A stretch of DNA of 64,000 bases from Eledone cirrhosa (Eukaryota), in NCBI GenBank assembly GCA_964016885.1, contig OZ024749.1, positions 7,130,001 to 7,194,000 of the forward strand. The letters run 5' to 3'. The translations under genes and the position numbers were made by a program. Under the pieces are notes generated by a model that was given only the letters and a program-made list of their open reading frames with translations, was not told the DNA's origin and ran no database searches. The number at the start of each line of letters is the position of its first letter. The stretch's first letter is position 1. This document shows positions 1 through 57,716 of the stretch, piece by piece.

Positions 1-1386
1 TATATAAAATTGAAATAGTATGTGTGTGTGTGTGTGTGTCCCCTAATTTTTGCAAAGTCTATACAAATCCATATTTCTACTCCGATTGACTTCAAACTTG
101 CATTTATATATTCCTTGTGGTCTAAAGATATTAACTGCAGTTTTAATTTGTCAATTTTCAGTTGTTAAAGGCATGTTAGGCGCCGGTTATCGATCTCTCA
201 CTCTCTTTATTAGTCTATCTTTTTAGATAGATACATAGCTATAAGGTCGCGCCCTTATAATATTCGCAGATTGATTTTTTTAGTTTCAGAAGATCCCGTT
301 AAGGGTGAAAGCACACGTAAGCAATCTCAATGTTACTGCTGCTACATAGGACTCCCATTACCACTGAACTTTCACCTTTGCGTTCTGCATTTCCATCCGC
401 AGGCTGACATGGAATGGTCTTCATAGTAGTCGGTTTATTGAGGGAGAAACAAAAGGGTCTCGAATTTGCCATCCAAAAAACACATTGACAATAACAAAAA
501 CCACTAAAATCAACGCAGAATGATACATTGTAGAAAACTTTAACCCGTCTTTTATTAATCAAAAAACTTCTTGCCAATAAACATTAACCCTTTGTGCGCC
601 ATTCATCTAACTGTAGATCAACAAATACCAACTAAACGGAGCGTTGAAAAGAACGATGGCGAATGAATCTTCGAGGTAAGCAGTTTCCTCCCGAGCTGTT
701 AGTTCACGCGGGATTCTCTGCTACACTTTTTCATAATAATTATTTCTACTTTAGGCACAAGGCCAGCAATTACCCAGTGCATTACTGGTACTTTATTTTA
801 TCGACCCCGTAAGGGTCGATAAATAATAATAATACCATAAATAATAATAATACCAAATAATAATACCATAATAATAATACCAAACAACATACTGCTGGTC
901 ATTCCTTCCTCCAAAAGCCGTACAAAGCAGACATGTGCATCAGGTGCAAATCTACACCAGGCCTACGCGAGAAATTTGCAAGGGACTGCACCGAGAGGGA
1001 TAGAGAGAAAGAGTAACTTAGTGGAAAGAGTGCGAATGAACTTTTGAGGTAAGTAGCCTACGCCTTACTGCTATTGCACTGGAACCTTCTGCCAACTTAA
1101 ACTGTGACTTTCTCTTTCACATTTACTCCAATAGGCCAAAACAGAGTGGAAACACCGGAGTATTTCATGGAAGGAGTATGAAAAGAAGGGGCTCAACAAT
1201 ATTTCTATGAACAATGCACGTAGACAACTAAACTGTACTTTCAACTTCTTAATTTTCTCCAAATAAAACAAGTTTCCAGCCGGTATATTTTTGCGAGTTT
1301 TTAACAGGCACTCACAAATAAACGTTTCTCACTGGAGGTGCTATTACCAATGTTCTTACCCGTGCAACGCCGGGATACACTGCTAG
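1..1386 (+). mobile_element. Non-autonomous Helitron (5' end at or just before window start), with nested SINE fragment
   Basis: Begins TATATAAAATT followed by (GT)n. Ends with GC hairpin CCCGTGCAACGCCGGG (1359-1374) and CTAG|T (1383-1387), the canonical Helitron 3' terminus. Same end architecture as 55685-56693. Confidence 0.7.
738..825 (-). mobile_element. 3' fragment of SINE family A
   Basis: Reverse complement of GGGGTCGATAAAATAAAGTACCAGTAATGCACTGGGTAATTGCTGGCCTTGTGCC..AGTAGAAA, which recurs many times in the window. Confidence 0.8.
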
Positions 1387-2556: not shown

Positions 2557-2617
2557 TATTTTATCTGACGAAAGCGTACTAAAATATTAGTATCCTTGAA
2601 ATACGTATAATAAAATA
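2557..2617 (+). ncRNA. Type I minimal hammerhead ribozyme (family H1)
   Basis: Stem I TATTTTAT/ATAAAATA; core CTGACGA (2565-2571); stem II AAGcGTACTAA-AATA-TTAGTATcCTT; GAAA; palindromic stem III TACGTA; AUA triplet, cleavage predicted after 2609. Confidence 0.8.
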
Positions 2618-6771: not shown

Positions 6772-6832
<61 letters not shown>

Positions 6833-6998
6833 GTAGGAGGTGAGTTTTATTGTAGCACAATAAAGCAATGCAAATATCGGATAAGTATCACTCTACACTT
6901 TTTCCCCATCTCATACATCAATCTTAAATTATTTTTCATATGTTGATTTAAAACTTCACTATTCACAAGTGTTTTTTAAGCTTCATATCATGTATCCC

Positions 6999-7069
6999 TA
7001 TTTTATCTGATGAAAACGCAAATATCATCCCATGATGATATTTGTTTTTGAAATGTGCATAATAAAATA
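6999..7069 (+). ncRNA. Hammerhead ribozyme (family H4) in element 6832-7103
   Basis: TATTTTAT CTGATGA AAAcGCAAATATCATC-CCAT-GATGATATTTGTtTTT GAAA TGTGCA TA ATAAAATA. Cleavage predicted after 7061. Confidence 0.8.
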
Positions 7070-7101
7070 CTTGGAACTCTTTTAACCATCTTTTGATCTT
7101 T

Positions 7102-9426: not shown

Positions 9427-9492
9427 TATTTCATTATATATATTTCAGGGATATCATATTAAAAATATGGTATGCCTTCTTCAGACAAAATA
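9427..9492 (-). ncRNA. Hammerhead (family H1)
   Basis: Minus: TATTTTGT CTGAAGA AGGcATAcCATATT-TTT-AATATGaTATcCCT GAAA TATATA TA ATGAAATA. Confidence 0.75.
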
Positions 9493-12142: not shown

Positions 12143-15100
12143 TAGGGATGGATGAGCTGGGAATACACGAGCAACTCTGAATCAATAGATGAAATATGAA
12201 TCTGCGAGCTACCAAGCACCCACGTGAAGCGCCAACCCAGAGACCCTCCCCTACGAGTGTCGACAAATGCCCAAAACTCCGAGTTGGTACCATCAATGTA
12301 GGCTCAATGAAAGGAAGAGCAGGAGAAATCGTAGAAATGCTAGAGCGAAAGGAAGTTGATGTATGCTGTGTGCAAGAGACTAGATGGAGAGGAGGGTCTG
12401 CTAGAGTCCTTGTAGGAAAAAGCCAGTGCTACAAATTTTTCTGGGTGGGAAATGACGATGGGATGGGTGGTGTAGGTATACTATTAGCTGACAAGTGGGT
12501 AGATAAAGTAATCTCAGTGTACAGGGTAAATGCAAGAATCATTAAACTCAGACTAGTCCTGAATAAGACAATTACCACAATAATATCAGCTTACGCACCC
12601 CAATCGGGGCTGCCAGACGAACTTAAGGATAGGTTTTACGAGTCCCTAATACACACTACTGCTCTAACAGACGACAAGGACTTCCTAATCATTGCAGGAG
12701 ATTTTAACGGACACGTAGGTAAACACTGCGACGGCTTCGATAGAGTACATGGAGGCCATGGAGTTGGCACAAGGAATGAGGAAGGATTCAGACTTCTAGA
12801 ATTCTGCGACGCCAATGACATGTCGATATGTAACACAAACTTTAAAAAACCCGACAACCACCTGATCACCTATAGATCAGGGGAGCACTCTAGTCAGTTA
12901 GATTTTATCCTCATCAGAGGACGTGACAGATGGACGGTCGTAAACACAAAAGCCTTCCCTAGTGAGGAATGTACATCCCAACATAGCTTAGTTGTCAGCG
13001 ACCTCACGGTCAGAACTAGACGAGCCCTGAAACAGAGGCCAACCTGGAGAAGAAAGATCTGGAAGCTGAAAGTCCCCTCAACCAGTAACAGATTTAAAGA
13101 TATTTTACTCAACGCCTACGACAGTAAAGAAGAACAGATAGAGACATTTAACGTAGAAGAGAACTGGGAGTTCCTAAAAAATAACTTACTAGAGGCGACG
13201 GATGAGGTTTGTGGCTGGAGTAAGACCTCAAGCAGGAGGAGAGTGACTTGGTGGTGGAACAATAAGGTAGATGAAGCAGTCAAGGCCAAGAGACAGGCAT
13301 GGAAAGAATGGAAGAACGGGGGGAGCAGGGTACATTACATAGAGACCAAGAGGGAAGCTAGGCGACAAGTATACTTAGCTAGGAGGGAAGCAGAGGATAG
13401 AAAATTCAAGCATGTTTTACAACGTGAGGACCAGAAACAGGAGGTATTCAAGATTGCGAGGCAGTGTGTCAGAGATAGTTGTGATGTCATTGGAGAGAAG
13501 TGTATCCGGAATGATAAAGGTGAGCTTGCCCTCACAAGTGCTGAGAAGAAAGATGCATGGAAGAGTCATTATGATAGATTACTAAATGAGGAGAATGCAT
13601 GGGAAGAAGAGACCCTACCCCACGTAGACCCTATAGAGGGACCAGCAGTACAAGTCAGCGGCAGCGTAGTAAGTAAGGCAATCAGAGATATGAAGATAGG
13701 GAAGGCAACCGGTCCATCGGGTATAGCTGCCGAGATGCTGAAGGCATCTGGGTCTGTAGGTCACACTATAACCACACGTATCGTTAACCAGGTAATACTA
13801 GAGGGGGCCATACCAAAAGATTGGTGCAGTAGCATCATTGTCAACTGCTACAAAGGTAAAGGCGATGCACTAGATAGAGGAAACTATAGAGGTATAAAGT
13901 TGATGGACCAGGTCATGAAAGTAACAGAAAGAGTTATAGCACAGCTGATTAGGGACCGGGTGAATATAGACGAGATGCAATTTGGGTTTGTTCCAGGGAA
14001 AGGCACCACTGATGCGCTCTTCCTTGTGAGGCAATTACAGGAAAAGTACCTAGCTAAAAGTAAGCCACTCTACTTGGCATTTGTCGACCTTGAGAAAGCC
14101 TTTGACAGAGTTCCACGTGCAGTAATCTGGTGGGCTCTTAGAAAACTAGGAGTAGATGAATGGCTTGTGAAAGCGGTACAAGCCATGTATAGGGGAGCAG
14201 TCAGCAAAGTTAGGATTGGCAATGAGTATAGCGAGGAATTTAGCGTACAGGTTGGGGTCCACCAGGGCTCTGTTCTTAGCCCTCTCCTGTTCATCATAGT
14301 CCTGCAGGCAATAACGGAGGAGTTTAAGACCGGATGCCCATGGGAACTCCTGTATGCTGATGACCTCGCACTCATAGCTGAATCTATGGTAGAACTAGAG
14401 AATAAATTCCAAACCTGGAAGCAGGGACTAGAGAGAAAGGGCCTCAAAGTCAACATGACAAAGACTAAGGTCCTTATAAGTAGACGAGAAAACAGAACCC
14501 AGATCCCCTCAGGGAAATGGCCTTGCTCAGTATGTAGGAAAGGTGTAGGTAGGAACTCCATTCTTTGCCCCAAATGCAAACAATGGGTACACAAGAGATG
14601 TAGCGGGATCTCAGGAAGCTTAATTAAGAATGTAGGATTCACATGCAGCAGCTGTGCTGAAACAGCAAGCAAACAGCCACAGGAAACAAGTACCACCAAT
14701 CTCTGGGAGGGCCCTGTAGAAACAGTAGACAGCTTCTGCTACCTAGGTGACCGAATTAGCAACGGAGGTGGGTGCTCAGAAAGTACAATAACTAGGGTAA
14801 GAACGGGATGGAAGAAGTTTAGGGAACTACTACCACTGCTAGCTGCAAAAGGCTTCTCCCTCAGAATGAAAGGCAGACTGTATGATGCGTGTATCCGAAC
14901 AGCGATGTTGCATGGTAGTGAGACCTGGGCGCTGAAGGTGGAAGACTTACGTAGATTAGAGAGAAACGAAGCCTGCATGCTCCGATGGATGTGTAACAGT
15001 AATATACGTGAACGACAAAGCATAAATGAATTGAGAGAGAGACTGAGCATAAGAGGAATCAAATGCTGCGTGCAGGAGAGGCGGTTACGCTGGTATGGAC

Positions 15101-15621
15101 ATGTGATGCGTATGAAGGATGACAGCTGCATAAAAAGGTGCAGAGCACTAGAAGTTGATGGAAACCGCGGAGTGGGGAGACCCAAGATGACTTGGGATGA
15201 GGTGATAAAAGCCGACCTTACCCAACTACACCTCTCAAAGTCAATGACACACGACCGTGACTTCTGGCGTCACGCAGTAATACAGGGTACCCGACCTCCC
15301 ATGGGTACATGCTGAAGCATATAAACGATATGCCCCCCCCCCCCCCACCGCAAGGTGGTCGTGGAGGTGCCACGGCAAAACAGCACCCAGCCCACACTGT
15401 AAAGTGGACGTGTAGGCGCCACGAAAAAGCACCCAGCACTCACTGTAAATGAGGTTGGTGTTAGGAAGGGCATCCAGCTGTAGAAATCAAGCCAGATCAG
15501 TTCCTGTATGAGCAAGGCATGGTCAGCCGACCAGACACTGCCCACAACAGGACAACCCGTCTAACCCATGCTAGCGTGGAAGAACGGACGTAAAACGGTG
15601 ATGATGATGATGATGATGATG
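12143..15621 (+). mobile_element. Near-full-length RTE-clade LINE
   Basis: Single long ORF, ~300-nt 3' UTR with internal ~48-bp repeats, (GAT)n tail. Inserted within the minisatellite. Confidence 0.95.
12196..15315 (+). CDS. RTE LINE protein: APE endonuclease + reverse transcriptase with embedded PHD-type zinc finger
   Basis: APE motifs VGTINV, VQETRW, SAYAP, GDFNGH, LDFIL, SQHSLV. RT motifs [33 protein letters not shown] (14353-14364), FCYLG. RTE C-terminus [15 protein letters not shown]. Uninterrupted 1039 aa. Confidence 0.95.
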
Positions 15622-20610: not shown

Positions 20611-23600
20611 TGGTTGTTAAACCTGGATATCTATTGTGAAGCTAAGTAAAAGAGTATTGGTGGTTGTTAAACCTGGATATCTGTTGTGAAGCTAAGTAAA
20701 AGAGTATTGGTGGTTGTTAAACCTGGATATCTATTGTGAAGCTAAGTAAAACAGTATTGGTGGTTGTTAAACCTGGATATCTGTTGTGAAGCTAAGTAAA
20801 ACAGTATTGATGGTAGTTAAACCTGGATATCTATTGTGAAGCTAAAAACAGTATTGGTGGTTGTTAAACCTGGATATCTGTTGTGAAGCTAAGTAAAACA
20901 GTAGTGGTGGTTGTTAAACCTGGATATCTGTTGTGAAGCTAAGTAAAACAGTATTGATGGTAGTTAAACCTGGATATCTATTGTGAAGCTAAAAACAGTA
21001 TTGGTGGTTGTTAAACCTGGATATCTGTTGTGAAGCTAAGTAAAACAGTATTGCTGGTTGTTAAACCTGGATATCTGTTGTGAAGCTAAGTAAAACAGTA
21101 TTGATGGTAGTTAAACCTGGATATCTATTGTGAAGCTAAAAACAGTATTGGTGGTTGTTAAACCTGGATATCTGTTGTGAAGCTAAGTAAAACAGTATTG
21201 CTGGTTGTTAAACCTGGATATCTGTTGTGAAGCTAAGTAAAACAGTATTGCTGGTTGTTAAACCAGGATATCTGTTGTGAAGCTAAGTAAAACAGTATTG
21301 CTGGTTGTTAAACCTGGATATCTATTGTGAAGCTAAGTAAAACAGTATTGGTGGTAGTTAAACCTGGATATCTGTTGTGAAGCTAAGTAAAACAGTATTG
21401 CTGGTTGTTAAACCTGGATATCCGTTGTGAAGCTAAGTAAAACAGTATTGCTGGTAGTTAAACCTGGATATCTGTTGTGAATCTAAGTAAAACAGTATTG
21501 CTGGTAGTTAAACCTGGATATCTGTTGTGAAGCTAAGTAAAACAGTATTGCTGGTAGTTAAACCTGGATATCTGTTGTGAAGCTAAGTAAAACAGTATTG
21601 CTGGTAGTTAAACCTGGATATCTGTTGTGAAGCTAAGTAAAACAGTATTGGTGGTTGTTAAACCTGGATATCTGTTGTGAAGCTAAGTAAAACAGTATTG
21701 GTGGTTGTTAAACATGGATATCTGTTGTGAAGCTAAGTAAAACAGTATTGGTGGTTGTTAAACCTGGATATCTGTTGTGAAGCTAAGTAAAACAGTATTG
21801 GTGGTTGTTAAACCTGGATATCTGTTGTGAAGCTAAGTAAAACAGTATTGGTGGTAGTTAAACCTGGATATCTGTTGTGAAGCTAAGTAAAACAGTATTG
21901 GTGGTAGTTAAACCTGGATATCTGTTGTGAAGCTAAGTAAAACAGTATTGGTGGTAGTTAAACCTGGATATCTGTTGTGAAGCTAAGTAAAACAGTATTG
22001 GTGGTAGTTAAACCTGGATATCTGTTGTGAAGCTAAGTAAAACAGTATTGGTGGTTGTTAAACCTGGATATCTGTTGTGAAGCTAAGTAAAACAGTATTG
22101 GTGGTTGTTAAACCTGGATATATGTTGTGAAGCTAAGTAAAACAGTATTGGTGGTTGTTAAACCTGGATATCTGTTGTGAAGCTAAGTAAAAGAGTATTG
22201 GTGGTTGCTAAACCTGGATATCTATTGTGAAGCTAAGTAAAACAGTATTGGTGGTTGTTAAACCTGGATATCTGTTGTGAAGCTAAGTAAAACAGTATTG
22301 GTGGTAGTTAGACCTGGATATCTATTGTGAAGCTAAGTAAAACAGTATTGGTGGTAGTTAAACCTGGATATCTGTTGTGAAGCTAAGTAAAACAGTATTG
22401 GTGGTTGTTAAACCTGGATATCTATTGTGAAGCTAAGTAAAACAGTATTGATGGTAGTTAAACCTGGATATCTATTGTGAAGCTAAAAACAGTATTGGTG
22501 GTTGTTAAACCTGGATATCTGTTGTGAAGCTAAGTAAAACAGTATTGCTGGTTGTTAAACCTGGATATCTGTTGTGAAGCTAAGTAAAACAGTATTGCTG
22601 GTTGTTAAACCTGGATATCTGTTGTGAAGCTAAGTAAAACAGTATTGCTGGTTGTTAAACCTGGATATCTATTGTGAAGCTAAGTAAAACAGTATTGGTG
22701 GTAGTTAAACCTGGATATCTGTTGTGAAGCTAAGTAAAACAGTATTGCTGGTTGTTAAACCTGGATATCTGTTGTGAAGCTAAGTAAAACAGTATTGCTG
22801 GTAGTTAAACCTGGATATCTGTTGTGAATCTAAGTAAAACAGTATTGCTGGTAGTTAAACCTGGATATCTGTTGTGAAGCTAAGTAAAACAGTATTAGTA
22901 TTGCCGGTAGTTAAACCTGGATATCTGTTGTGAAGCTAAGTAAAACAGTATTGGTGGTTGTTAAACCTGGATATCTGTTGTGAAGCTAAGTAAAACAGTA
23001 TTGGTGGTTGTTAAACATGGATATCTGTTGTGAAGCTAAGTAAAACAGTATTGGTGGTTGTTAAACCTGGATATCTGTTGTGAAGCTAAGTAAAACAGTA
23101 TTGGTGGTTGTTAAACCTGGATATCTGTTGTGAAGCTAAGTAAAACAGTATTGATGGTAGTTAAACCTGGATATCTGTTGTGAAGCTAAGTAAAACAGTA
23201 TTGGTGGTTGTTAAACCTGGATATCTGTTGTGAAGCTAAGTAAAACAGTATTGGTGGTAGTTAAACCTGGATATCTGTTGTGAAGCTAAGTAAAACAGTA
23301 TTGGTGGTAGTTAAACCTGGATATCTGTTGTGAAGCTAAGTAAAACAGTATTGGTGGTAGTTAAACCTGGATATCTGTTGTGAAGCTAAGTAAAACAGTA
23401 TTGGTGGTAGTTAAACCTGGATATCTGTTGTGAAGCTAAGTAAAACAGTATTGGTGGTTGTTAAACCTGGATATCTGTTGTGAAGCTAAGTAAAACAGTA
23501 TTGGTGGTTGTTAAACCTGGATATCTGTTGTGAAGCTAAGTAAAACAGTATTGGTGGTTGTTAAACCTGGATATCTGTTGTGAAGCTAAGTAAAACAGTA

Positions 23601-26600
23601 TTGGTGGTTGTTAAACCTGGATATCTATTGTGAAGCTAAGTAAAACAGTATTGGTGGTTGTTAAACCTGGATATCTGTTGTGAAGCTAAGTAAAACAGTA
23701 TTGGTGGTTGTTAAACCTGGATATCTGTTGTGAAGCTAAGTAAAACAGTATTGATGGTAGTTAAACCTGGATATCTGTTGTGAAGCTAAAAACAGTATTG
23801 GTGGTTGTTAAACCTGGATATCTGTTGTGAAGCTAAGTAAAAGAGTATTGGTGGTAGTTAAACCTGGATATCTGTTGTGAAGCTAAAAACAGTATTGATG
23901 GTTGTTAAACCTGGATATCTGTTGTGAAGCTAAGAAAAACAGTATTGGTGGTAGTTAAACCTGGATATCTGTTGTCAAGCTAAGTAAAACAGTATTGGTG
24001 GTTGTTAAACCTGGATATCTGTTGTGAAGCTAAGTAAAACAGTATTGGTGGTTGTTAAACCTGGATATCTGTTGTGAAGCTAAGTAAAACAGTATTGCTG
24101 GTTGTTAAAACTGGATATCTGTTGTGAAGCTAAGTAAAACAGTATTGCTGGTTGTTAAACCTGGATATCTATTGTGAAGCTAAGTAAAACAGTATTGGTG
24201 GTAGTTAAACCTGGATATCTGTTGTGAAGCTAAGTAAAACAGTATTGCTGGTTGTTAAACCTGGATATCTGTTGTGAAGCTAAGTAAAACAGTATTGCTG
24301 GTAGTTAAACCTGGATATCTGTTGTGAATCTAAGTAAAACAGTATTGCTGGTAGTTAAACCTGGATATCTGTTGTGAAGCTAAGTAAAACAGTATTGCTG
24401 GTAGTTAAACCTGGATATCTGTTGTGAAGCTAAGTAAAACAGTATTGCTGGTAGTTAAACCTGGATATCTGTTGTGAAGCTAAGTAAAACAGTATTGGTG
24501 GTTGTTAAACCTGGATATCTGTTGTGAAGCTAAGTAAAACAGTATTGGTGGTTGTTAAACATGGATATCTGTTGTGAAGCTAAGTAAAACAGTATTGGTG
24601 GTTGTTAAACCTGGATATCTGTTGTGAAGCTAAGTAAAACAGTATTGGTGGTTGTTAAACCTGGATATCTGTTGTGAAGCTAAGTAAAACAGTATTGATG
24701 GTAGTTAAACCTGGATATCTGTTGTGAAGCTAAGTAAAACAGTATTGGTGGTTGTTAAACCTGGATATCTGTTGTGAAGCTAAGTAAAACAGTATTGGTG
24801 GTAGTTAAACCTGGATATCTGTTGTGAAGCTAAGTAAAACAGTATTGGTGGTAGTTAAACCTGGATATCTGTTGTGAAGCTAAGTAAAACAGTATTGGTG
24901 GTAGTTAAACCTGGATATCTGTTGTGAAGCTAAGTAAAACAGTATTGGTGGTAGTTAAACCTGGATATCTGTTGTGAAGCTAAGTAAAACAGTATTGGTG
25001 GTTGTTAAACCTGGATATCTGTTGTGAAGCTAAGTAAAACAGTATTGGTGGTTGTTAAACCTGGATATCTGTTGTGAAGCTAAGTAAAACAGTATTGGTG
25101 GTTGTTAAACCTGGATATCTGTTGTGAAGCTAAGTAAAAGAGTATTGGTGGTTGTTAAACCTGGATATCTATTGTGAAGCTAAGTAAAACAGTATTGGTG
25201 GTTGTTAAACCTGGATATCTGTTGTGAAGCTAAGTAAAACAGTATTGCTGGTAGTTAGACCTGGATATCTATTGTGAAGCTAAGTAAAACAGTATTGGTG
25301 GTAGTTAAACCTGGATATCTGTTGTGAAGCTAAGTAAAACAGTATTGGTGGTTGTTAAACCTGGATATCTGTTGTGAAGCTAAGTAAAACAGTATTGATG
25401 GTAGTTAAACCTGGATATCTATTGTGAAGCTAAAAACAGTATTGGTGGTTGTTAAACCTGGATATCTGTTGTGAAGCTAAGTAAAACAGTATTGCTGGTT
25501 GTTAAACCTGGATATCTGTTGTGAAGCTAAGTAAAACAGTATTGCTGGTTGTTAAACCTGGATATCTGTTGTGAAGCTAAGTAAAACAGTATTGCTGGTT
25601 GTTAAACCTGGATATCTATTGTGAAGCTAAGTAAAACAGTATTGGTGGTAGTTAAACCTGGATATCTGTTGTGAAGCTAAGTAAAACAGTATTGCTGATT
25701 GTTAAACCTGGATATCTGTTGTGAAGCTAAGTAAAACAGTATTGCTGGTAGTTAAACCTGGATATCTGTTGTGAATCTAAGTAAAACAGTATTGCTGGTA
25801 GTTAAACCTGGATATCTGTTGTGAAGCTAAGTAAAACAGTATTGCTGGTAGTTAAACCTGGATATCTGTTATGAAGCTAAGTAAAACAGTATTGCTGGTA
25901 GTTAAACCTGGATATCTGTTGTGAAGCTAAGTAAAACAGTATTGGTGGTTGTTAAACCTGGATATCTGTTGTGAAGCTAAGTAAAACAGTATTGATGGTA
26001 GTTAAACCTGGATATCTGTTGTGAAGCTAAGTAAAACAGTATTGGTGGTTGTTAAACCTGGATATCTGTTGTGAAGCTAAGTAAAACAGTATTGGTGGTA
26101 GTTAAACCTGGATATCTGTTGTGAAGCTAAGTAAAACAGTATTGGTGGTAGTTAAACCTGGATATCTGTTGTGAAGCTAAGTAAAACAGTATTGGTGGTA
26201 GTTAAACCTGGATATCTGTTGTGAAGCTAAGTAAAACAGTATTGGTGGTAGTTAAACCTGGATATCTGTTGTGAAGCTAAGTAAAACAGTATTGGTGGTT
26301 GTTAAACCTGGATATCTGTTGTGAAGCTAAGTAAAACAGTATTGGTGGTTGTTAAACCTGGATATCTGTTGTGAAGCTAAGTAAAAGAGTATTGGTGGTT
26401 GTTAAACCTGGATATCTGTAGTGAAGCTAAGTAAAACAGTATTGGTGGTTGTTAAACCTGGATATCTATTGTGAAGCTAAGTAAAACAGTATTGGTGGTT
26501 GTTAAACCTGGATATCTGTTGTGAAGCTAAGTAAAACAGTATTGGTGGTTGTTAAACCTGGATATCTGTTGTGAAGCTAAGTAAAACAGTATTGATGGTA

Positions 26601-29600
26601 GTTAAACCTGGATATCTGTTGTGAAGCTAAAAACAGTATTGGTGGTTGTTAAACCTGGATATCTGTTGTGAAGCTAAGTAAAAGAGTATTGGTGGTAGTT
26701 AAACCTGGATATCTGTTGTGAAGCTAAAAACAGTATTGATGGTTGTTAAACCTGGATATCTGTTGTGAAGCTAAGAAAAACAGTATTGGTGGTAGTTAAA
26801 CCTGGATATCTGTTGTCAAGCTAAGTAAAACAGTATTGGTGGTTGTTAAACCTGGATATCTGTTGTGAAGCTAAGTAAAACAGTATTGGTGGTTGTTAAA
26901 CCTGGATATCTATTGTGAAGCTAAGTAAAACAGTATTGGTGGTTGTTAAACCTGGATATCTGTTGTGAAGCTAAAAACAGTATTGATGGTAGTTAAACCT
27001 GGATATCTGTTGTGAAGCTAAAAACAGTATTGGTGGTTGTTAAACCTGGATATCTGTTGTGAAGCTAAGTAAAAGAGTATTGGTGGTAGTTAAACCTGGA
27101 TATCTGTTGTGAAGCTAAAAACAGTATTGATGGTTGTTAAACCTGGATATCTGTTGTGAAACTAAGTAAAACAGTATTGGTGGTAGTTAAACCTGGATAT
27201 CTGTTGTGAAGCTAAGTAAAACAGTATTGGTGGTTGTTAAACCTGGATATCTATTGTGAAGCTAAGTAAAACAGTATTGGTGGTTGTTAAACCTGGATAT
27301 CTGTTGTGAAGCTAAAAACAGTATTGATGGTAGTTAAACCTGGATATCTGTTGTGAAGCTAAGTAAAACAGTATTGCTGGTAGTTAAACCTGGATATCTG
27401 TTGTGAAGCTAAGTCAAACAGTATTGGTGGTTGTTAAACCTGGATATCTGTTGTGAAGCTAAGTCAAACAGTATTGGTGGTTGTTAAACCTGGATATCTG
27501 TTGTGAAGCTAAAAACAGTATTGGTGGTTGTTAAACCTGGTTATCTGTTGTGAAGCTAAGTAAAACAGTATTGCTGGTAGTTAAACCTGGATATCTGTTG
27601 TGAAGCTAAGTAAAACAGTATTGGTGGTAGTTAAACCTGGATATCTGTTGTGAAGCTATGTAAAACAGTATTGGTGGTAGTTAAACCTGGATATCTGTTG
27701 TGAAGCTAAGTAAAACAGTATTGGTGGTTGTTAAACCTGGATATCTGTTGTGAAGCTAAGTAAAACAGTATTGGTGGTAGTTAAACCTGGATATCTGTTG
27801 TGAAGCTAAGTCAAACAGTATTGCTGGTAGTTAGACCTGGATATCTGTTGTGAAGCTAAGTAAAACCGTATTGCTGGTTGTTAAACCTGGATATCTGTTG
27901 TGAAGCTAAGTAAAACAGTATTGGTGTAGTTAAACTTGGATATCTGTTGTGAAGCTAAGTAAAAGAGTATTGGTGGTTGTTAAACCTGGATATCTGTTGT
28001 GAAGCTAAGTAACACAGTATTGCTGGTAGTTAAACCTGGATATCTGTTGTGAAGCTAAGTAAAAGAGTATTGCTGGTAGTTAAACCAGGATATCTGTTGT
28101 GAAGCTAAAAACAGTATTGGTGGTAGTTAAACCTGGATATCTGTTGTGAAGCTAAAAACAGTATTGGTGGTAGTTAAACCTGGATATCTGTTGTGAAGCT
28201 AAGTAAAACAGTATTGGTGGTAGTTAAACCTGGATATCTGTTGTGAAGCTAAGTAAAACAGTATTGCTGGTAGTTAAACCAGGATATCTGTTGTGAAGCT
28301 AAAAACAGTATTGGTGGTAGTTAAACCTGGATATCTGTTGTGAAGCTAAAAACAGTATTGGTGGTAGTTAAACCTGGATATCTGTTGTGAAGCTAAGTAA
28401 AACAGTATTGGTGGTAGTTAAACCTGGATATCTGTTGTGAAGCTAAGTAAAACAGTATTGCTGGTAGTTAAACCTGGATATCTGTTGTGAAGCTAAGTCA
28501 AACAGTATTGATGGTAGTTAAACCAGGATATCTGTTGTGAAGCTAAGTAAAACAGTATTGGTGGTAGTTAAACCTGGATATCAGTTGTGAAGCTAAGTAA
28601 AACAGTATTGGGGGTTGTTAAACCTGGATATCTGCTGTGAAGCTAAGTAAAAGAGTATTGCTGGTAGTTAAACCTGGATATCTGTTGTGAAGCTAAGTAA
28701 AACAGTATTGATGGTAGTTAAACCTGGATATCTGTTGTGAAGCTAAGTAAAAGAGTATTGCTGGTAGTTAAACCTGGATATCTGTTGTGAAGCTAAGTAA
28801 AACAGTATTGATGGTAGTTAAACCTGGATATCTGTTGTGAAGTAAAACAGTATTGGTGGTAGTTAAACCTGGATATCAGTTGTGAAGCTAAGTAAAACAG
28901 TATTGATGGTTGTTAAACCTGGATATCTGTTGTGAAGCTAAGTAAAACAGTATTGATGGTAGTTAAACCTGGATATCTGTTGTGAAGCTAAGAAAAACAG
29001 TATTGATGGTAGTTAAACCTGGATATCTGTTGTGAAGCTAAGTAAAACAGTATTGGTGGTAGTTAAACCTGGATATCAGTTGTGAAGCTAAGTAAAACAG
29101 TATTGATGGTTGTTAAACCTGGATATCTGTTGTGAAGCTAAGTAAAACAGTATTGATGGTTGTTAAACCTGGATATCTGTTGTGAAGCTAAAAACAGTAT
29201 TGGTGGTAGTTAAACCTGGATATCTGTTGTGAAGCTAAGTAAAACAGTATTGGTGGTAGTTAAACCTGGATATCTGTTGTGAAGCTAAGTAAAACAGTAT
29301 TGCTGGCAGTTAAACCAGGATATCTGTTGTGAAGCTAAGTAACACAGTATTGGTGGTAGTTAAACCTGGATATCTGTTGTGAAGCTAAGTAAAACAGTAT
29401 TGCTGGTAGTTAAACCTGGATATCTGTTGTGAAGCTAAGTAAAACAGTATTGCTGGCAGTTAAACCAGGATATCTGTTGTGAAGCTAAGTAAAACAGTAT
29501 TGGTGGTTGTTAAACCTGGATATCTGTTGTGGAGCTAAAAACAGTATTGGTGGTAGTTAAACCTGGATATCTGTTGTGAAGCTAATTAAAACAGTATTGG

Positions 29601-32600
29601 TGGTAGTTAAACCTGGATATCTGTTGTGAAGCTAAGTAAAACAGTATTGCTGGCAGTTAAACCAGGATATCTGTTGTGAAGCTAAGTAAAACAGTATTGG
29701 TGGTAGTTAAACCTGGATATCTGTTGTGAAGCTAAGTAAAACAGTATTGCTGGTAGTTAAACCTGGATATCTGTTGTGAAGCTAAGTAAAACAGTATTGC
29801 TGGCAGTTAAACCAGGATATCTGTTGTGAAGCTAAGTAAAACAGTATTGGTGGTTGTTAAACCTGGATATCTGTTGTGGAGCTAAAAACAGTATTGGTGG
29901 TAGTTAAATCTGGATATCTGTTGTGAAGCTAAGAAAAACAGTATTGGTGGTTGTTAAACCTGGATATCTGTTGTGAAGCTAAGTAAAACAGTATTGGTGG
30001 TTGTTAAACCTGGATATCTGTTGTGAAGCTAAGTAAAAGAGTATTGGTGGTAGTTAAACCTGGATATCTGTTGTGAAGCTAAGTAAAAGAGTATTGGTGG
30101 TAGTTAAACCTGGATATCTGTTGTGAAGCTAAGTAAAACAGTATAGGTGGTAGTTAAACCTGGATATCTGTTGTGAAGCTAAGTAAAACAATATTGGTGG
30201 TAGTTAAACCTGGATATCTGTTGTGAAGCTAAGTAAAACAGTATTGATGGTAGTTAAACCTGGATATCTGTTGTGAAGCTAAGTAAAACAGTATTGCTGG
30301 TAGTTAAACCTGGATATCTGATGTGAAGCTAAGTAAAACAGTATTGGTGGTAGTTAAACCTGGATATCTGTTGTGAAGCTAAGTAAAACAGTATTGGTGG
30401 TTGTTAAACCTGGATATCTGTTGTGAAGCTAAGTAAAAGAGTATTGGTGGTAGTTAAACCTGGATATCTGTTGTGAAGCTAAGTAAAACAGTATTGGTGG
30501 TAGTTAAACCTGGATATCTGTTGTGAAGCTAAGTAAAACAGTATTGGTGGTTGTTAAACCTGGATATCTGTTGTGAAGCTAAGTAAAAGAGTATTGGTGG
30601 TAGTTAAACCTGGATATCTGTTGTGAAGCTAAGTAAAACAGTATTGCTGGTAGTTAAACCTGGATATCTGTTGTGAAGCTAAGTAAAAGAGTATTGGTGG
30701 TTGTTAAACCTGGATATCTGTTGTGAAGCTAAGTAAAACAGTATTGGTGGTTGTTAAACCTGGATATCAGTTGTGAAGCTAAGTAAGACAGTATTGGTGG
30801 TAGTTAAACCTGGATATCTGTTGTGAAGCTAAGTAAAACAGTATTGATGGCAGTTAAACCTGGATATCTGTTGTGAAGCTAAGTAAAACAGTATTGGTGG
30901 TTGTTAAACCTGGATATCTGTTGTGAAGCTAAGTAAAACAGTATTGGTGGTTGTTAAACCTGGATATCTATTGTGGAGCTAAAAACAGTATTGGTGGTTG
31001 TTAAACCTGGATATCTGTTGTGAAGCCAAGTAAAACAGTATTGGTGGTTGTTAAACCTGGATATCTGTTGTGAAGCTAAATTGTAAAACAGTATTGATGG
31101 TAGTTAAACCTGGATATCTGTTGTGAAGCTAAGTAAAACAGTATTGGTGGTTGTTAAACCTGGATATCTGTTGTGAAGCTAAGTAAAACAGTATTGGTGG
31201 TAGTTAAACCTGGATATCTGTTGTGAAGCTAAGTAAAACAGTATTGGTGGTAGTTAAACCTGGATATCTGTTGTGAAGCTAAGTAAAACAGTATTGCTGG
31301 CAGTTAAACCAGGATATCTGTTGTGAAGCTATGTAAAACAGTATTGGTGGTTGTTAAACCTGGATATCTTGTGGAGCTAAAAACAGTATTGGTGGTAGTT
31401 AAATCTGGATATCTGTTGTGAAGCTAAGAAAAACAGTATTGGTGGTTGTTAAACCTGGATATCTGTTGTGAAGCTAAGTAAAACAGTATTGGTGGTTGTT
31501 AAACCTGGATATCTGTTGTGAAGCTAAGTAAAACAGTATTGGTGGTAGTTAAACCTGGATATCTGTTGTGAAGCTAAGTAAAAGAGTATTGGTGGTAGTT
31601 AAACCTGGATATCTGTTGTGAAGCTAAGTAAAACAGTATAGGTGGTAGTTAAACCTGGATATCTGTTGTGAAGCTAAGTAAAACAATATTGGTGGTAGTT
31701 AAACCTGGATATCTGTTGTGAAGCTAAGTAAAACAGTATTGATGGTAGTTAAACCTGGATATCTGTTGTGAAGCTAAGTAAAACAGTATTGCTGGTAGTT
31801 AAACCTGGATATCTGATGTGAAGCTAAGTAAAACAGTATTGGTGGTAGTTAAACCTGGATATCTGTTGTGAAGCTAAGTAAAACAGTATTGGTGGTTGTT
31901 AAACCTGGATATCTGTTGTGAAGCTAAGTAAAAGAGTATTGGTGGTAGTTAAACCTGGATATCTGTTGTGAAGCTAAGTAAAACAGTATTGGTGGTAGTT
32001 AAACCTGGATATCTGTTGTGAAGCTAAGTAAAACAGTATTGGTGGTTGTTAAACCTGGATATCTGTTGTGAAGCTAAGTAAAAGAGTATTGGTGGTAGTT
32101 AAACCTGGATATCTGTTGTGAAGCTAAGTAAAACAGTATTGCTGGTAGTTAAACCTGGATATCTGTTGTGAAGCTAAGTAAAAGAGTATTGGTGGTTGTT
32201 AAACCTGGATATCTGTTGTGAAGCTAAGTAAAACAGTATTGGTGGTTGTTAAACCTGGATATCAGTTGTGAAGCTAAGTAAAACAGTATTGGTGGTAGTT
32301 AAACCTGGATATCTGTTGTGAAGCTAAGTAAAACAGTATTGATGGCAGTTAAACCTGGATATCTGTTGTGAAGCTAAGTAAAACAGTATTGGTGGTTGTA
32401 AAACCTGGATATCTGTTGTGAAGCTAAGTAAAACAGTATTGGTGGTTGTTAAACCTGGATATCTATTGTGGAGCTAAAAACAGTATTGGTGGTTGTTAAA
32501 CCTGGATATCTGTTGTGAAGCCAAGTAAAACAGTATTGGTGGTTGTTAAACCTGGATATCTGTTGTGAAGCTAAATTGTAAAACAGTATTGATGGTAGTT

Positions 32601-35600
32601 AAACCTGGATATCTGTTGTGAAGCTAAGTAAAACAGTATTGGTGGTTGTTAAACCTGGATATCTGTTGTGAAGCTAAGTAAAACAGTATTGGTGGTAGTT
32701 AAACCTGGATATCTGTTGTGAAGCTAAGTAAAAGAGTATTGGTGGTAGTTAAACCTGGATATCTGTTGTGAAGCTAAGTAAAACAGTATTGCTGGTAGTT
32801 AAACCTGGATATCTGTTGTGAAGCTAAGTAAAACAGTATTGGTGGTTGTTAAACCTGGATATCTGTTGTGAAGCTAAGTAAAACAGTATTGGTGGTAGTT
32901 AAACCTGGATATCTGTTGTGAAGCTAAGTAAAACAGTATTGCTGGTAGTTAAACCTGGATATCTGTTGTGAAGCTAAGTAAAACAGTATTGGTGGTTGTT
33001 AAACCTGGATATCTGTTGTGAAGCTAAGTAAAACAGTATTGGTGGTAGTTAAACCTGGATATCTGTTGTGAAGCTAAGTAAAACAGTATTGCTGGTAGTT
33101 AAACCTGGATATCTGTTGTGAAGCTAAGTAAAACAGTATTGGTGGTTGTTAAACCTGGATATCTGTTGTGAAGCTAAGTAAAACAGTATTGCTGGTAGTT
33201 AAACCTGGATATCTGTTGTGAAGCTAAGTAAAACAGTATTGGTGGTTGTTAAACCTGGATATATGTTGTGAAGCTAAGTAAAACAGTATTGGTGGTTGTT
33301 AAACCTGGATATCTGTTGTGAAGCTAAGTAAAACAGTATTGGTGGTAGTTAAACCTGGATATCTGTTGTGAAGCTAAGTAAAACAGTATTGGTGGTAGTT
33401 AAACCTGGATATCTATTGTGGAGCTAAAAACAGTATTGGTGGTTGTTAAACCTGGCTATCTGTTGTGGAGCTAAGTAAAACAGTATTGGTGGTTGTTAAA
33501 CCTGGATATCTGTTGTGAAGCTAAGTAAAACAGTATTGGTGGTAGTTAAACCTGGATATCTGTTGTGAAGCTAAGTAAAACAGTATTGGTGGTTGTTAAA
33601 CCTGGATATCTGTTGTGAAGCTAAGTAAAACAGTATTGGTGGTAGTTAAACCTGGATATCTGTTGTGAAGCTAAGTAAAACAGTATTGGTGGTAGTTAAA
33701 CCTGGATATCTATTGTGGAGCTAAAAACAGTATTGGTGGTTGTTAAACCTGGATATCTGTTGTGGAGCTAAGTAAAACAGTATTGGTGGTAGTTAAACCT
33801 GGATATCTGTTGTGAAGCTAAGTAAAACAGTATTGATGGTTGTTAAACCTGGATATCTGTTGTGAAGCTAAGTAAAACAGTATTGATGGTTGTTAAACCT
33901 GGATATCTGTTGTGAAGCTAAGTAAAACAGTATTGGTGGTAGTTAAACCTGAATATCTGTTGTGAAGCTAAGTAAAACAGTATTGATGGTTGTTAAACCT
34001 GGATATCTGTTGTGAAGCTAAGTAAAACAGTATTGGTGGTTGTTAAACCTGGATATCTGTTGTGGAGCTAAGTAAAACAGTATTGGTGGTAGTTAAACCT
34101 GGATATCTGTTGTGAAGCTAAGTAAAACAGTATTGATGGTTGTTAAACCTGGATATCTGTTGTGAAGCTAAGTAAAACAGTATTGGTGGTAGTTAAACCT
34201 GGATATCTATTGTGGAGCTAAAAACAGTATTGGTGGTTGTTAAACCTGGATATCTGTTGTGAAGCTAAGTAAAACAGTATTGGTGGTAGTTAAACCTGGA
34301 TATCTGTTGTGAAGCTAAGTAAAAGAGTATTGGTGGTAGTTAAACCTGGATATCTGTTGTGAAGCTAAGTAAAACAGTATAGGTGGTAGTTAAACCTGGA
34401 TATCTGTTGTGAAGCTAAGTAAAACAATATTGGTGGTAGTTAAACCTGGATATCTGTTGTGAAGCTAAGTAAAACAGTATTGATGGTAGTTAAACCTGGA
34501 TATCTGTTGTGAAGCTAAGTAAAACAGTATTGGTGGTAGTTAAACCTGGATATCTGATGTGAAGCTAAGTAAAACAGTATTGGTGGTAGTTAAACCTGGA
34601 TATCTGTTGTGAAGCTAAGTAAAACAGTATTGGTGGTTGTTAAACCTGGATATCTGTTGTGAAGCTAAGTAAAAGAGTATTGGTGGTAGTTAAACCTGGA
34701 TATCTGTTGTGAAGCTAAGTAAAACAGTATTGGTGGTAGTTAAACCTGGATATCTGTTGTGAAGCTAAGTAAAAGAGTATTGGTGGTAGTTAAACCTGGA
34801 TATCTGTTGTGAAGCTAAGTAAAACAGTATTGCTGGTAGTTAAACCTGGATATCTGTTGTGAAGCTAAGTAAAACAGTATTGCTGGTAGTTAAACCTGGA
34901 TATCTGTTGTGAAGCTAAGTAAAAGAGTATTGGTGGTTGTTAAACCTGGATATCTGTTGTGAAGCTAAGTAAAACACTATTGGTGGTTGTTAAACCTGGA
35001 TATCAGTTGTGAAGCTAAGTAAGACAGTATTGGTGGTAGTTAAACCTGGATATCTGTTGTGAAGCTAAGTAAAACAGTATTGATGGCAGTTAAACCTGGA
35101 TATCTGTTGTGAAGCTAAGTAAAACAGTATTGGTGGTTGTTAAACCTGGATATCTGTTGTGAAGCTAAGTAAAACAGTATTGGTGGTTGTTAAACCTGGA
35201 TATCTATTGTGGAGCTAAAAACAGTATTGGTGGTTGTTAAACCTGGATATCTGTTGTGAAGCCAAGTAAAACAGTATTGGTGGTTGTTAAACCTGGATAT
35301 CTGTTGTGAAGCTAAATTGTAAAACAGTATTGATGGTAGTTAAACCTGGATATCTGTTGTGAAGCTAAGTAAAACAGTATTGGTGGTTGTTAAACCTGGA
35401 TATCTGTTGTGAAGCTAAGTAAAACAGTATTGGTGGTAGTTAAACCTGGATATCTGTTGTGAAGCTAAGTAAAACAGTATTGGTGGTAGTTAAACCTGGA
35501 TATCTGTTGTGAAGCTAAGTAAAAGAGTATTGGTGGTAGTTAAACCTGGATATCTGTTGTGAAGCTAAGTAAAACAGTATTGCTGGTAGTTAAACCTGGA

Positions 35601-37528
35601 TATCTGTTGTGAAGCTAAGTAAAACAGTATTGGTGGTTGTTAAACCTGGATATCTGTTGTGAAGCTAAGTAAAACAGTATTGGTGGTAGTTAAACCTGGA
35701 TATCTGTTGTGAAGCTAAGCAAAACAGTATTGCTGGTAGTTAAACCTGGATATCTGTTGTGAAGCTAAGTAAAACAGTATTGGTGGTTGTTAAACCTGGA
35801 TATCTGTTGTGAAGCTAAGTAAAACAGTATTGGTGGTAGTTAAACCTGGATATCTGTTGTGAAGCTAAGTAAAACAGTATTGCTGGTAGTTAAACCTGGA
35901 TATCTGTTGTGAAGCTAAGTAAAACAGTATTGGTGGTTGTTAAACCTGGATATCTGTTGTGAAGCTAAGTAAAACAGTATTGCTGGTAGTTAAACCTGGA
36001 TATCTGTTGTGAAGCTAAGTAAAACAGTATTGGTGGTTGTTAAACCTGGATATCTGTTGTGAAGCTAAGTAAAACAGTATTGGTGGTTGTTAAACCTGGA
36101 TATCTGTTGTGAAGCTAAGTAAAACAGTATTGGTGGTAGTTAAACCTGGATATCTGTTGTGAAGCTAAGTAAAAGAGTATTGGTGGTAGTTAAACCTGGA
36201 TATCTGTTGTGAAGCTAAGTAAAACAGTATTGCTGGTAGTTAAACCTGGATATCTGTTGTGAAGCTAAGTAAAACAGTATTGGTGGTTGTTAAACCTGGA
36301 TATCTGTTGTGAAGCTAAGTAAAACAGTATTGGTGGTAGTTAAACCTGGATATCTGTTGTGAAGCTAAGTAAAACAGTATTGGTGGTAGTTAAACCTGGA
36401 TATCTATTGTGGAGCTAAAAACAGTATTGGTGGTTGTTAAACCTGGCTATCTGTTGTGGAGCTAAGTAAAACAGTATTGGTGGTTGTTAAACCTGGATAT
36501 CTGTTGTGAAGCTAAGTAAAACAGTATTGGTGGTAGTTAAACCTGGATATCTGTTGTGAAGCTAAGTAAAACAGTATTGGTGGTTGTTAAACCTGGATAT
36601 CTCTTGTGAAGCTAAGTAAAACAGTATTGGTGGTAGTTAAACCTGGATATCTGTTGTGAAGCTAAGTAAAACAGTATTGGTGGTAGTTAAACCTGGATAT
36701 CTATTGTGGAGCTAAAAACAGTATTGGTGGTTGTTAAACCTGGATATCTGTTGTGGAGCTAAGTAAAACAGTATTGGTGGTAGTTAAACCTGGATATCTG
36801 TTGTGAAGCTAAGTAAAACAGTATTGATGGTTGTTAAACCTGGATATCTGTTGTGAAGCTAAGTAAAACAGTATTGATGGTTGTTAAACCTGGATATCTG
36901 TTGTGAAGCTAAGTAAAACAGTATTGGTGGTAGTTAAACCTGAATATCTGTTGTGAAGCTAAGTAAAACAGTATTGATGGTTGTTAAACCTGGATATCTG
37001 TTGTGAAGCTAAGTAAAACAGTATTGGTGGTTGTTAAACCTGGATATCTGTTGTGGAGCTAAGTAAAACAGTATTGGTGGTAGTTAAACCTGGATATCTG
37101 TTGTGAAGCTAAGTAAAACAGTATTGGTGGTTGTTAAACCTGGATATCTGTTGTGGAGGTAAGTAAAACAGTATTGGTGGTAGTTAAACCTGGATATATG
37201 TTGTGAAGCTAAGTAAAACAGTATTGATGGTTGTTAAACCTGGATATCTGTTGTGAAGCTAAGTAAAACAGTATTGGTGGTAGTTAAACCTGGATATCTA
37301 TTGTGGAGCTAAAAACAGTATTGGTGGTTGTTAAACCTGGATATCTGTTGTGAAGCTAAGTAAAACAGTATTGGTGGTTGTTAAACCTGGATATCTGTTG
37401 TGAAGCTAAATTGTAAAACAGTATTGGTGGCTGTTAAACCTGGATATCTGTTGTGAAGCTAAGTAAAACAGTATTGCTGGTTGTTAAACCTGGATATCTG
37501 TTGTGAAGCTAAAAACAGTATTGCTGGT
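20611..37528. repeat. 50-bp satellite array, roughly 340 monomers
   Basis: Consensus GGTGGT(T/A)GTTAAACCTGGATATCTGTTGTGAAGCTAAGTAAAACAGTATT, with 47-bp and 52-bp indel variants. No spacers and no ORF in the track. Confidence 0.98.
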
Positions 37529-37639
37529 ATAAATATATTTGGAATGTTGTTTTAGAATTAAACAAGAAGCTACATCTATTTATCACCATTTATATTTTAT
37601 AGAGTAAAGTTGAAAAAGGTTATTAACAATTTATTACTT

Positions 37640-47811: not shown

Positions 47812-48152
47812 TTAGAAAGTGAGGTTTTTTTTACAAAATGAAAAATAACCGAGGTGTCCTACACGAGTGAAAGTATAAAGAAAAAGAGATGAAATCGAAA
47901 ATGCAACTGAAGTCTTATTTTTTTTAAAAAAATATATATATTTATTTGGTTCCTTTACCGGTTTCGCAGTTCTTCTGCTTTTCAAAAGGTGAGTTGAGAT
48001 GGAGGGTCTGTGGTTGAAAAACCACAGACCCTCCATCTCAACTCACCTTTTGAAAAGCAGAAGAACTGCGAAACCGGTAAAGGAACCAAATAAATATATA
48101 TATTTAAAAAAAAAATAAGACTTCAGTTGCATTTTCGATTTCATCTCTTTTT

Positions 48153-48159
<7 letters not shown>
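47812..48159. mobile_element. Family H6 foldback element with two U3-A8 hammerheads (47952-47989 minus, 48046-48083 plus)
   Basis: ~140-bp near-perfect inverted arms (47874-48015 / 48020-48159) around a GAAA loop. (TA)n flanks. Confidence 0.8.
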
Positions 48160-48193
<34 letters not shown>

Positions 48194-48196
<3 letters not shown>

Positions 48197-48325
48197 AAAT
48201 ACTTGGAACTCTTTTAACCATCTTTTGATCTTATATTATTTTTATACTCCAGTCCTATAAACTGTGGAGTGCTACTTATCCGATATTTGCATTGCTTTAT
48301 CGTGCTATAATAAAACTCACCTCCT

Positions 48326-48328
<3 letters not shown>
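48194..48328 (+). mobile_element. Family H4 copy starting at the hammerhead cleavage site
   Basis: Begins ATAAAATACTTGGAACTCTTTTAACC (= 7062 onward). Its 3' part is the reverse complement of 6832-6897. Confidence 0.8.
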
Positions 48329-48365
<37 letters not shown>

Positions 48366-48387
48366 GCACACACATATATATATGTAT

Positions 48388-48915
48388 ATTTGCAAAATTT
48401 GAGTATTCTCGGTACAGAAGGTAGCCGTTAGCAACTGTATATTACTTGCAGAGTAACATTTTTTTTTTTTTTAGGGGGGGGAGGATGTAAAGATATAACA
48501 GCAAATTGAATGGAGAGTGTGAAAGAGAGAGGGAGAAAGACGAAAAAAGAGGGGGTTAAAGGGAGGGAGAGAGAGAGGGGAGGAGGAGGCAAGGAGAAAA
48601 ATGTGGATTAGAGCGATGGAGAGATGGATAGAAAGATGAAGTGAAAGATTAACAAGGAATAAGGTACTTGGCGGTATTATACGGCAAATTATTGATAGGG
48701 AGCTGATGATCCAAATACTGCCAAGTATCTCATTCTTGTTAATCTTTCACTATCTTTCTATCCATCGCTCTAATTCACATTTTTCTCCTCACCTCCTCCT
48801 CTCTCGCTCCCTTTAACCCCCTCTTTTCGATTTTTTATATCTTAACCAAAAAAAAACAAATTTTACTATTCAAATAGTATACAGCTGGTAACAATGCTGA
48901 GAATACTTTGCAAAC
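48388..48915. repeat. Long imperfect inverted repeat (foldback element)
   Basis: Arms ~48390-48677 and ~48714-48914; purine-rich left arm, pyrimidine-rich right arm. Confidence 0.75.
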
Positions 48916-57300: not shown

Positions 57301-57716
57301 AACAATGAGTTTGTTGATTATTCAAGAGAATTATGTTCATAATATATATGAAGCGCTCTACAGTAAATTTATCTAGAGCATTATAATATTAATAATAGTA
57401 ATAAATGGAAAATATCACTATAGCATCATATTTATTTTATCATACGTATTTCAAGGATACCAAAGCATAGTATGCTTTCTTCAGATAAAATACAATATTT
57501 GATGTATAAGATAGTGACATACCCAAAGTATAAGCTTTCAACTTCAGCTTACAGTGGGCATCCTGGGTATGCACTTTGGGTATGTCACTATCTTATACAT
57601 CAAATATTGTATATCATCTGATGAAAGCATACCATAATTTGGTATCCTTGAAATACGTATATTGAAATAAATATGATGCTATACTGATATTTTCCATTTA
57701 TTACTATTATTAATAT
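57301..57716. mobile_element. Family H1 foldback element with two hammerheads (57433-57492 minus, 57610-57669 plus)
   Basis: Inverted arms ~57385-57529 / ~57573-57716. Cores CTGAAGA and CTGATGA, GAAA TACGTA, triplets AUG and AUA. Confidence 0.8.

What the first reader, a model, noticed from the sequence alone, without database searches (positions are those of the whole stretch)
48194..48328. An insertion that starts exactly at the predicted ribozyme cleavage site
The H4 hammerhead (6999-7069) is predicted to cut after 7061, releasing an RNA that starts ATAAAATACTTGGAACTC. A separate copy at 48194 starts with exactly that sequence directly after (TA)n. Inference: a genomic footprint of a self-cleaved RNA being reverse transcribed and integrated. 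Caveat: the AUA triplet is microhomologous to (TA)n, so the junction is ambiguous by a few nt and could reflect microhomology-guided truncation.
Basis: partly seen in the sequence, partly recalled or inferred. Interest (0 to 1): 0.75.

Follow-up and report, generated by a model that had tools for sequence, protein, structure and literature searches.

The report
Truncated Penelope copy at ribozyme cut
This 135-base piece is one of thousands of copies of a Penelope-type jumping gene, and its start at the predicted ribozyme cut is likely a chance join to TA repeats, because similar copies start as often a few bases away, although eight back-to-back copies elsewhere in the genome do meet exactly at the cut.

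Summary
In detail: 48194 begins with the sequence after the predicted hammerhead cut (7061/7062), with 3 ambiguous bases. The piece is the long-tail end of a (TA)n-targeting Penelope-like element with Hydra-clade motifs, with at least 2,758 arms in this genome. In 100 unselected arms, 2 end at the cut, 96 run through it, and 29 end at -119..-126. The fixed 5' end is therefore 124 bases upstream (window 6938), likely the transcription start. A small signal remains: 8 independent head-to-head insertions have both arms ending at the cut; 4 of 5 symmetric fusions fall on this one of six comparable sites. That fits a few per cent of self-cleaved templates but does not prove it. No RNA data were available. 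Earlier notes of this scan reported similar weak excesses on other DNA of this genome.

The parts
48194..48328 (+). Single 5'-truncated arm of the element, positions +1..+135 counted from the predicted cut, ending at the family's long 3' (tail) end
   Evidence: 97% to the family reference
48191..48193 (+). ATA shared by the (TA)n flank and the element's -3..-1; true junction lies anywhere in -3..+1
48156..48193 (.). (TA)n target, left side
48330..48362 (.). (TA)n target, right side
6999..7069 (+). Type I hammerhead motif, predicted cut after 7061; stem III is TGTGCA here, while 87 of 127 held copies read GAAATGCGCATA with the palindrome ATGCGCAT
6902..7101 (+). Forward arm of the second copy, about -160..+40, ending at the short 3' end; runs through both the -124 site and the cut
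6832..6901 (-). Inverted arm of the second copy, +135 back to about +66 (long 3' end)
6935..6943 (+). TTC|ATATG: position -124 (6938), the family's dominant 5' end; initiator-like, within the palindrome CATATG; probable transcription start (inferred)

Best explanation
The piece is a 5'-truncated copy of a Penelope-like retrotransposon in a (TA)n tract, likely copied from uncut RNA and likely joined to the repeat through the shared ATA, so its start at the predicted hammerhead cut is probably coincidence. Shown: family identity, two fixed 3' ends (+40..46 and +133..135), (TA)n flanks, spread of 5' ends, peak at -124. Inferred: the element's endonuclease cuts (TA)n; its reverse transcriptase starts at the long-tail site inside the RNA (as shown in vitro for Poseidon, PMC11167929); this cDNA stopped early and annealed by 3 bases to the TA tract. 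Full run-off on the usual template would end at -124, the likely RNA 5' end.
For: Unselected arms (first 100 of 2,758 exact matches, C1): 2 end at +2..+9, 2 at -3..+1, 15 at -4..-63, 7 at -64..-118, 29 at -119..-126 (14 at -124, 8 at -125); rate per base per arm 0.005 at the cut, 0.002-0.003 background, 0.049 at the -124 peak. Direct (TA)n junctions, C1 to C15:28.7 Mb: class -3..+1: 3 including the window; class +1..+4: 3 TA-flanked (plus one tandem join and one fusion); class +6..+9: 9 arms at 8 loci; +4..+5: 2; others further down: 7. Pooled fractional counts of 55 junction arms on C1-C17: 5.0 at +1, range 1.1-7.7 over -3..+9. Arms ending at -124 are joined to +6 in 4 cases and to +1 in none on C1-C17, though both offer ATA. 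1,104 matches at -124 with altered upstream sequence, 83 of the first 100 read by eye as junctions. In Poseidon, uncut RNA was the dominant substrate and no reads began at the cut (PMC11167929).
Against: Inversion-junction arms start at +1 more often than a microhomology-weighted null gives (10 of 33 against about 3, P <= 0.001; intervals including +1: 12 against 6-10, P 0.01-0.22). Eight independent insertions have both arms ending at +1. So some cDNAs do appear to end at the cut, and this copy could be one. A single junction cannot be assigned.
Confidence: 0.7

Rival explanations
1. One reading: the hammerhead cut the RNA, reverse transcriptase ran off the 5'-OH end at +1, and the end was joined to (TA)n.
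For: The junction interval includes +1. The ribozyme core is well kept (87 of 127 held copies have the modal core). Symmetric head-to-head fusions: 4 of 5 lie at the +1/+2 AT among six 2-base self-complementary centres (binomial P 0.003); 7 loci in all plus one with an AT spacer, with unrelated flanks and at least two subfamilies. An upstream control window gave 4 element fusions against 20 near the cut, none symmetric at a 2-base centre. A stall at stem I would be expected at +8/+9 rather than +1 (inference).
Against: The excess is confined to inversion junctions; the (TA)n class to which this copy belongs shows none. +6 is also above the null (7 of 33). The set of centres was chosen after the fusions had been seen, and the same loci feed several tests. 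Metazoan PLE hammerheads cleave poorly as monomers in vitro (PMC4209133).
Confidence: 0.25
2. The copy was longer when inserted and lost its 5' part later by deletion between the (TA)n tract and the AT-rich +1 region; likewise the symmetric fusions could be loop deletions or template jumps at the top of stem I that need no cut.
For: One copy has lost exactly the ribozyme core between the stem I arms (L196), and one is joined through the 8-base stem I match (L110); deleting the loop of the latter would give the symmetric fusion. 34 of 108 filtered arms carry local indels in this AT-rich stretch.
Against: Only 1 stem-I-matched junction appeared among the 67 rows, against 5 symmetric fusion loci in the same rows, so the supposed precursor is rarer than its product. 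The window copy is 97% identical to the family reference and has clean flanks.
Confidence: 0.05

Closest known systems
Hydra clade of C-terminal EN+ Penelope-like elements (Craig et al. 2021, PMC8557442; section 11 and passages read)
   Same: DKT motif, CxCX5C linker, CxxC and CxH around the conserved E and N, hammerhead in the pLTR, insertion into (TA)n, 5'-truncated and inverted copies.
   Different: RW is followed by I, not K; no intact full-length copy was retrieved and no tree was built; the paper's passages give no map of 5' ends.
Poseidon of Anolis carolinensis, PAc (Frangieh et al. 2024, PMC11167929; parts 1-2 of 4 read)
   Same: Two fixed 3' ends (tail), AT-rich targets, both strands primed, hammerhead upstream of the start sites, uncut RNA the main template.
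   Different: Tail here is about 90 bases, not 30-40; the hammerhead lies upstream of the ORF rather than overlapping its start; here a few genomic fusions end at the cut, whereas that paper found no reads at the cut.
EN+ Penelope of Adineta vaga (Arkhipova et al. 2013, PMC3846280; passages read)
   Same: Head-to-head inverted pLTRs with a palindrome at the junction, an initiator-like motif in the pLTR, microhomology at 5' junctions, solo pLTRs.
   Different: That paper proposes self-priming on an antisense template; here 13 of 15 head-to-head pairs have one long and one short tail, which suggests two separately primed cDNAs.
Animal non-LTR retrozymes (Li et al. 2026, bioRxiv 10.64898/2026.07.22.740005; part 1 of 5 read)
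   Same: Type I hammerhead with short palindromic stem III, PLE machinery.
   Different: No tandem hammerhead array at this locus; the family continues into RT- and endonuclease-coding sequence.
R2 elements with 5' HDV-like ribozymes (recalled, no call)
   Same: The idea that a ribozyme cut sets the 5' end of the inserted copy.
   Different: Different ribozyme and element class; here 96 of 100 arms run through the cut.

Membership tests
EN+ Penelope-like element | RT coding region downstream of the pLTR and GIY-YIG-type endonuclease upstream of the 3' pLTR | tested here: met
   RT motifs (QFDIASYY, GGIYRDDG) follow the tail in L004/L008; an endonuclease-like C-terminus (VYECK..TYFG) precedes the 3' region in L200-L205; motifs read by eye. 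Pfam gave 0 families for 3 fragments.
EN+ Penelope-like element | Optional 3' tail (two fixed ends), 5' truncation, inverted head-to-head copies | tested here: met
Hydra clade | DKT in place of DKG | tested here: met
   VHSDKTN in L004, L008
Hydra clade | CxCX5C linker; CxxC and CxH flanking E and N; no CCHH | tested here: met
   CNCPVRTKC, CNLCLAEK, CLH in L201, L203, L205, by eye without alignment to reference elements
Hydra clade | RWK motif | tested here: inconclusive
   RWI in L004 and L201
Hydra clade | Insertion into (TA)n and canonical hammerhead | tested here: met
Hydra clade | Single ORF, element under 3 kb, placement in the clade by phylogeny | not tested
   No intact copy fetched; reference sequences in the paper's supplements were not read
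Type I hammerhead ribozyme | CUGANGA/GAAA core, NUH triplet, three stems | tested here: met
   no hammerhead family was among the 150 best of 243 Rfam rows shown; position 10.1-11.1 is A-U, not G-C
Type I hammerhead ribozyme | Self-cleavage | not testable with these tools
   no RNA holder listed
Non-LTR retrozyme | Tandem non-coding units, each with a hammerhead | tested here: not met
   No such array at either window locus; family is coding
Elements whose 5' end is set by a ribozyme (R2-like) | Copies' 5' ends peak at the cut | tested here: not met
   2 of 100 arms at -3..+1 against 29 at -119..-126

The most novel reading that the evidence does not exclude
The genome preserves a read-out of this element's RNA: most templates begin at a fixed start 124 bases upstream of the hammerhead cut, a few per cent were self-cleaved, and because both cDNAs of an insertion (one long-tail, one short-tail) are copied from the same RNA molecule, cleaved templates leave symmetric head-to-head fusions centred exactly on the cut. 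That would be fossil evidence that a Penelope hammerhead cuts in vivo and that twin priming uses one RNA.
Probability: 0.45. Interest if true: 0.55.

Novelty: new member of a known kind. Interest (0 to 1): 0.3.

Why it matters
What hammerheads do in Penelope-like elements is stated to be unclear (PMC8557442), and the one in vitro system found cleavage dispensable with no RNA reads at the cut (PMC11167929). This family gives a countable answer: the cut does not set the 5' end of copies, a site 124 bases upstream does, and at most a small minority of templates were cut.

Tried and rejected
Rfam scan of the window: only microRNA-like hits on repeats among the rows shown. Pfam on three ORF fragments: no family. 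An untemplated G at -124 as a cap mark: not shown (G ends 4 of 19 unexplained inserts, C 8 of 19). A second hammerhead cutting at -124: no core nearby in the window scan. Symmetric fusions as duplicates of one event: rejected, no shared unique flanks in 21 pairwise comparisons, one copy from another subfamily. My first tally of unselected arms merged identical stretches and gave 98 arms; it was redone by coordinate (100 arms) with the same result. A sequence look-up of earlier notes found nothing. Five paper searches listed no paper that tabulates PLE 5' ends against the hammerhead cut; subscription papers and supplements were not seen, so this is no proof of absence.

Full report
Observation. 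The hammerhead motif at 6999-7069 and the predicted cut after 7061 are as described. The copy at 48194-48328 starts with the predicted 3' product; identity extends 3 bases further left (48191), so the junction with (TA)n may lie anywhere from -3 to +1, counting +1 as the first base after the cut. Its last 70 bases match 6832-6901 on the other strand, so the hammerhead locus is itself a two-armed inverted insertion.

What the element is. Genome searches gave 1,282 and 2,177 first-look candidates and 2,758 exact matches to +9..+26, a lower bound since a variant subfamily differs in this anchor (seen). Copies end at two fixed 3' positions, about +40..46 and +133..135, followed by (TA)n. Upstream lies an endonuclease-like C-terminus with CxCX5C, CxxC and CxH motifs; downstream of the long end two copies continue into RT-coding sequence with DKT and YRDD. 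These match the Hydra clade description (PMC8557442 section 11), by eye; Pfam found nothing and no tree was built. The two 3' ends correspond to the PLE tail, shown in Poseidon to be two internal start sites of reverse transcription (PMC11167929). Of 15 head-to-head pairs among unselected arms, 13 combine one long and one short end.

Where 5' ends fall. Of the 30 best matches to the window copy, 26 had a readable anchor; 23 ran through the cut, and the window copy and two inversion junctions began at it. For an unselected sample I took the first 100 matches (C1, 1-127 Mb): 2 arms end at +2..+9, 2 at -3..+1, 15 at -4..-63, 7 at -64..-118, 29 at -119..-126, 13 at -127..-300, the rest further up. 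The peak is at -124 (14) and -125 (8). Genome-wide, 1,104 matches start with the -124 sequence and differ from the element at -139; 83 of the first 100 rows read by eye as junctions and 17 as continuous copies. Many join unrelated partners exactly at -124, so this is more than the CATATG palindrome. TC|AT resembles an initiator (consensus recalled), and a pLTR initiator with palindromic inverted junctions is described in rotifer Penelope (PMC3846280). I infer that -124 is the RNA's 5' end; a cap-derived G was not shown.

A pattern for (TA)4 within 22 bases of +19 gave 172 matches, 100 listed (C1 to C15:28.7 Mb; many rows are one locus in several registers). I fetched or already held every listed locus and classed 51 arms: 27 are direct TA joins: 3 in class -3..+1 (window included), 6 in class +1..+4 (3 TA-flanked, 1 tandem join, 2 arms of one head-to-head fusion), 2 at +4..+5, 9 at +6..+9, 2 at +6..+12, 5 at +14 to +20. 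Of the 24 classed as not direct, one probably belongs to +1..+4 and one to +6..+9, each with an extra change. The three 3-base microhomology classes are equally likely under uniform truncation (enumerated by hand), and two of them are compatible with the cut; they hold 6 TA-flanked arms against 9. There is no peak. The exact junction of the window occurs twice in the genome.

Results against this reading. Arms that differ from the element at both -5 and -4 number 148 + 22 (67 with the +1..+18 anchor). Of 116 listed rows on C1-C17 I held 108; the 8 not fetched read as local indels. They split into 34 local indels, 33 inversion junctions, 14 forward jumps (7 from one tandem array), 8 TA joins, 19 unassigned. 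Pooled over 55 junction arms (window and 4 mis-classed rows dropped), fractional counts are flat: 5.0 at +1, range 1.1-7.7. But 10 of 33 inversion arms begin at +1 against 2.7-3.3 under a microhomology-weighted null (P <= 0.001), and 12 have intervals including +1 against 6-10 (P 0.01-0.22); one arm with a point change was reassigned to +1 by hand, two arms belong to one insertion, and +6 is also high (7). Much of the excess is symmetric head-to-head fusion: both arms, one long and one short, stop at +1 and overlap by AT. Seven such loci were seen and an eighth with an AT spacer; flanks are unrelated. In one uniform search (19 rows, 12 loci) symmetric fusions were 4 at +1/+2, 1 at -2/-1 and none at four other 2-base centres (P 0.003; the test was designed after seeing them). 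Near-symmetric fusions number 20 around the cut and 4 in an equal window at -67..-82, 3 further rows there being unrelated sequence; 9 of the 20 have one arm running to about -11..-15, past the cut and at the foot of stem II, and 3 are centred on the stem III palindrome, so RNA structure and microhomology also shape this region. For scale, 9 loci fused at -124/-124 appear in the first 337 Mb of C1, about 80 if scaled to the genome, against 3 matched on both strands at +1: a few per cent, with the caveat that CATATG offers a longer overlap.

Mechanism. Shown: anatomy, copy numbers, end distributions. From the literature: PLE protein nicks both strands of AT-rich DNA and starts cDNA at two internal sites; cleavage is not needed in vitro (PMC11167929); metazoan PLE hammerheads have short palindromic stem III and cleave weakly unless paired (PMC4209133). 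Inferred: most cDNAs here were made on uncut RNA and either ran off at -124 or stopped early and were joined by short microhomology; the window copy is one early stop joined through ATA (0.7). A minority of templates were probably cut, giving the symmetric fusions (0.45); the window copy being one of these is possible (0.25). Template jumps at the top of stem I without a cut remain a rival for the fusions (L196, L110).

Earlier notes. The scan's notes on other loci of this genome report similar weak or absent excesses at hammerhead cuts and twin starts; they gave me the Hydra-clade lead, which I checked on this family. They are not independent support.

Verdict. A new member of a known kind; the single-copy claim is not supported, the family-level claim survives only as a small, testable signal. 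Papers seen: PMC11167929 parts 1-2 of 4; PMC8557442 section 11 and passages; PMC4209133 and PMC3846280 passages; bioRxiv 10.64898/2026.07.22.740005 part 1 of 5; no supplements, which may hold reference Hydra sequences and end maps bearing on membership and novelty.

Noticed in passing
window 6938 (element position -124): The family's dominant 5' end: 29 of 100 unselected arms stop at -119..-126; probable transcription start with a predicted-by-eye 5' hairpin spanning about -124..-74 (not folded).
   Followed up: partly
L145, L152, L154, L158, L151, L153, L157, L159, L206: In near-symmetric fusions the short-tail arm runs to about -11..-15 (foot of stem II) and the long-tail arm stops at +1..+5, as if the short cDNA leads the long one by about 15 bases on one RNA.
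   Followed up: partly
window 47874-48159: Near-perfect palindrome (96-base inner arms, 4-base spacer) sharing the (TA)n tract with the studied copy; looks like a head-to-head insertion of another family.
   Followed up: no
window 48427-48892: Second, older inverted-repeat insertion just downstream, with a CTGATGA motif in its loop.
   Followed up: no
window 2557-2617 (+), 9427-9492 (-), about 57415-57488 (-): Three more type I hammerhead-like motifs of other families; the first has the same 8-base stem I as the studied one, the second a near match.
   Followed up: no
window 12193-15315 (+): Open frame of 1,040 codons with endonuclease-like and RT motifs, resembling an RTE-type LINE by eye.
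   Followed up: no
window 20611-37529: Satellite array of a 50-base unit, 340 copies, 95% matches.
   Followed up: no
L183 (G000:C10:41460185-41460647): Tandem run of 42-base units made of element positions +5..+46, in both arms of one insertion.
   Followed up: no
L017 and L209 (C25, 350 kb apart): Two insertions with unrelated flanks share one junction: short arm to +9, one unexplained G, long arm from +1.
   Followed up: partly
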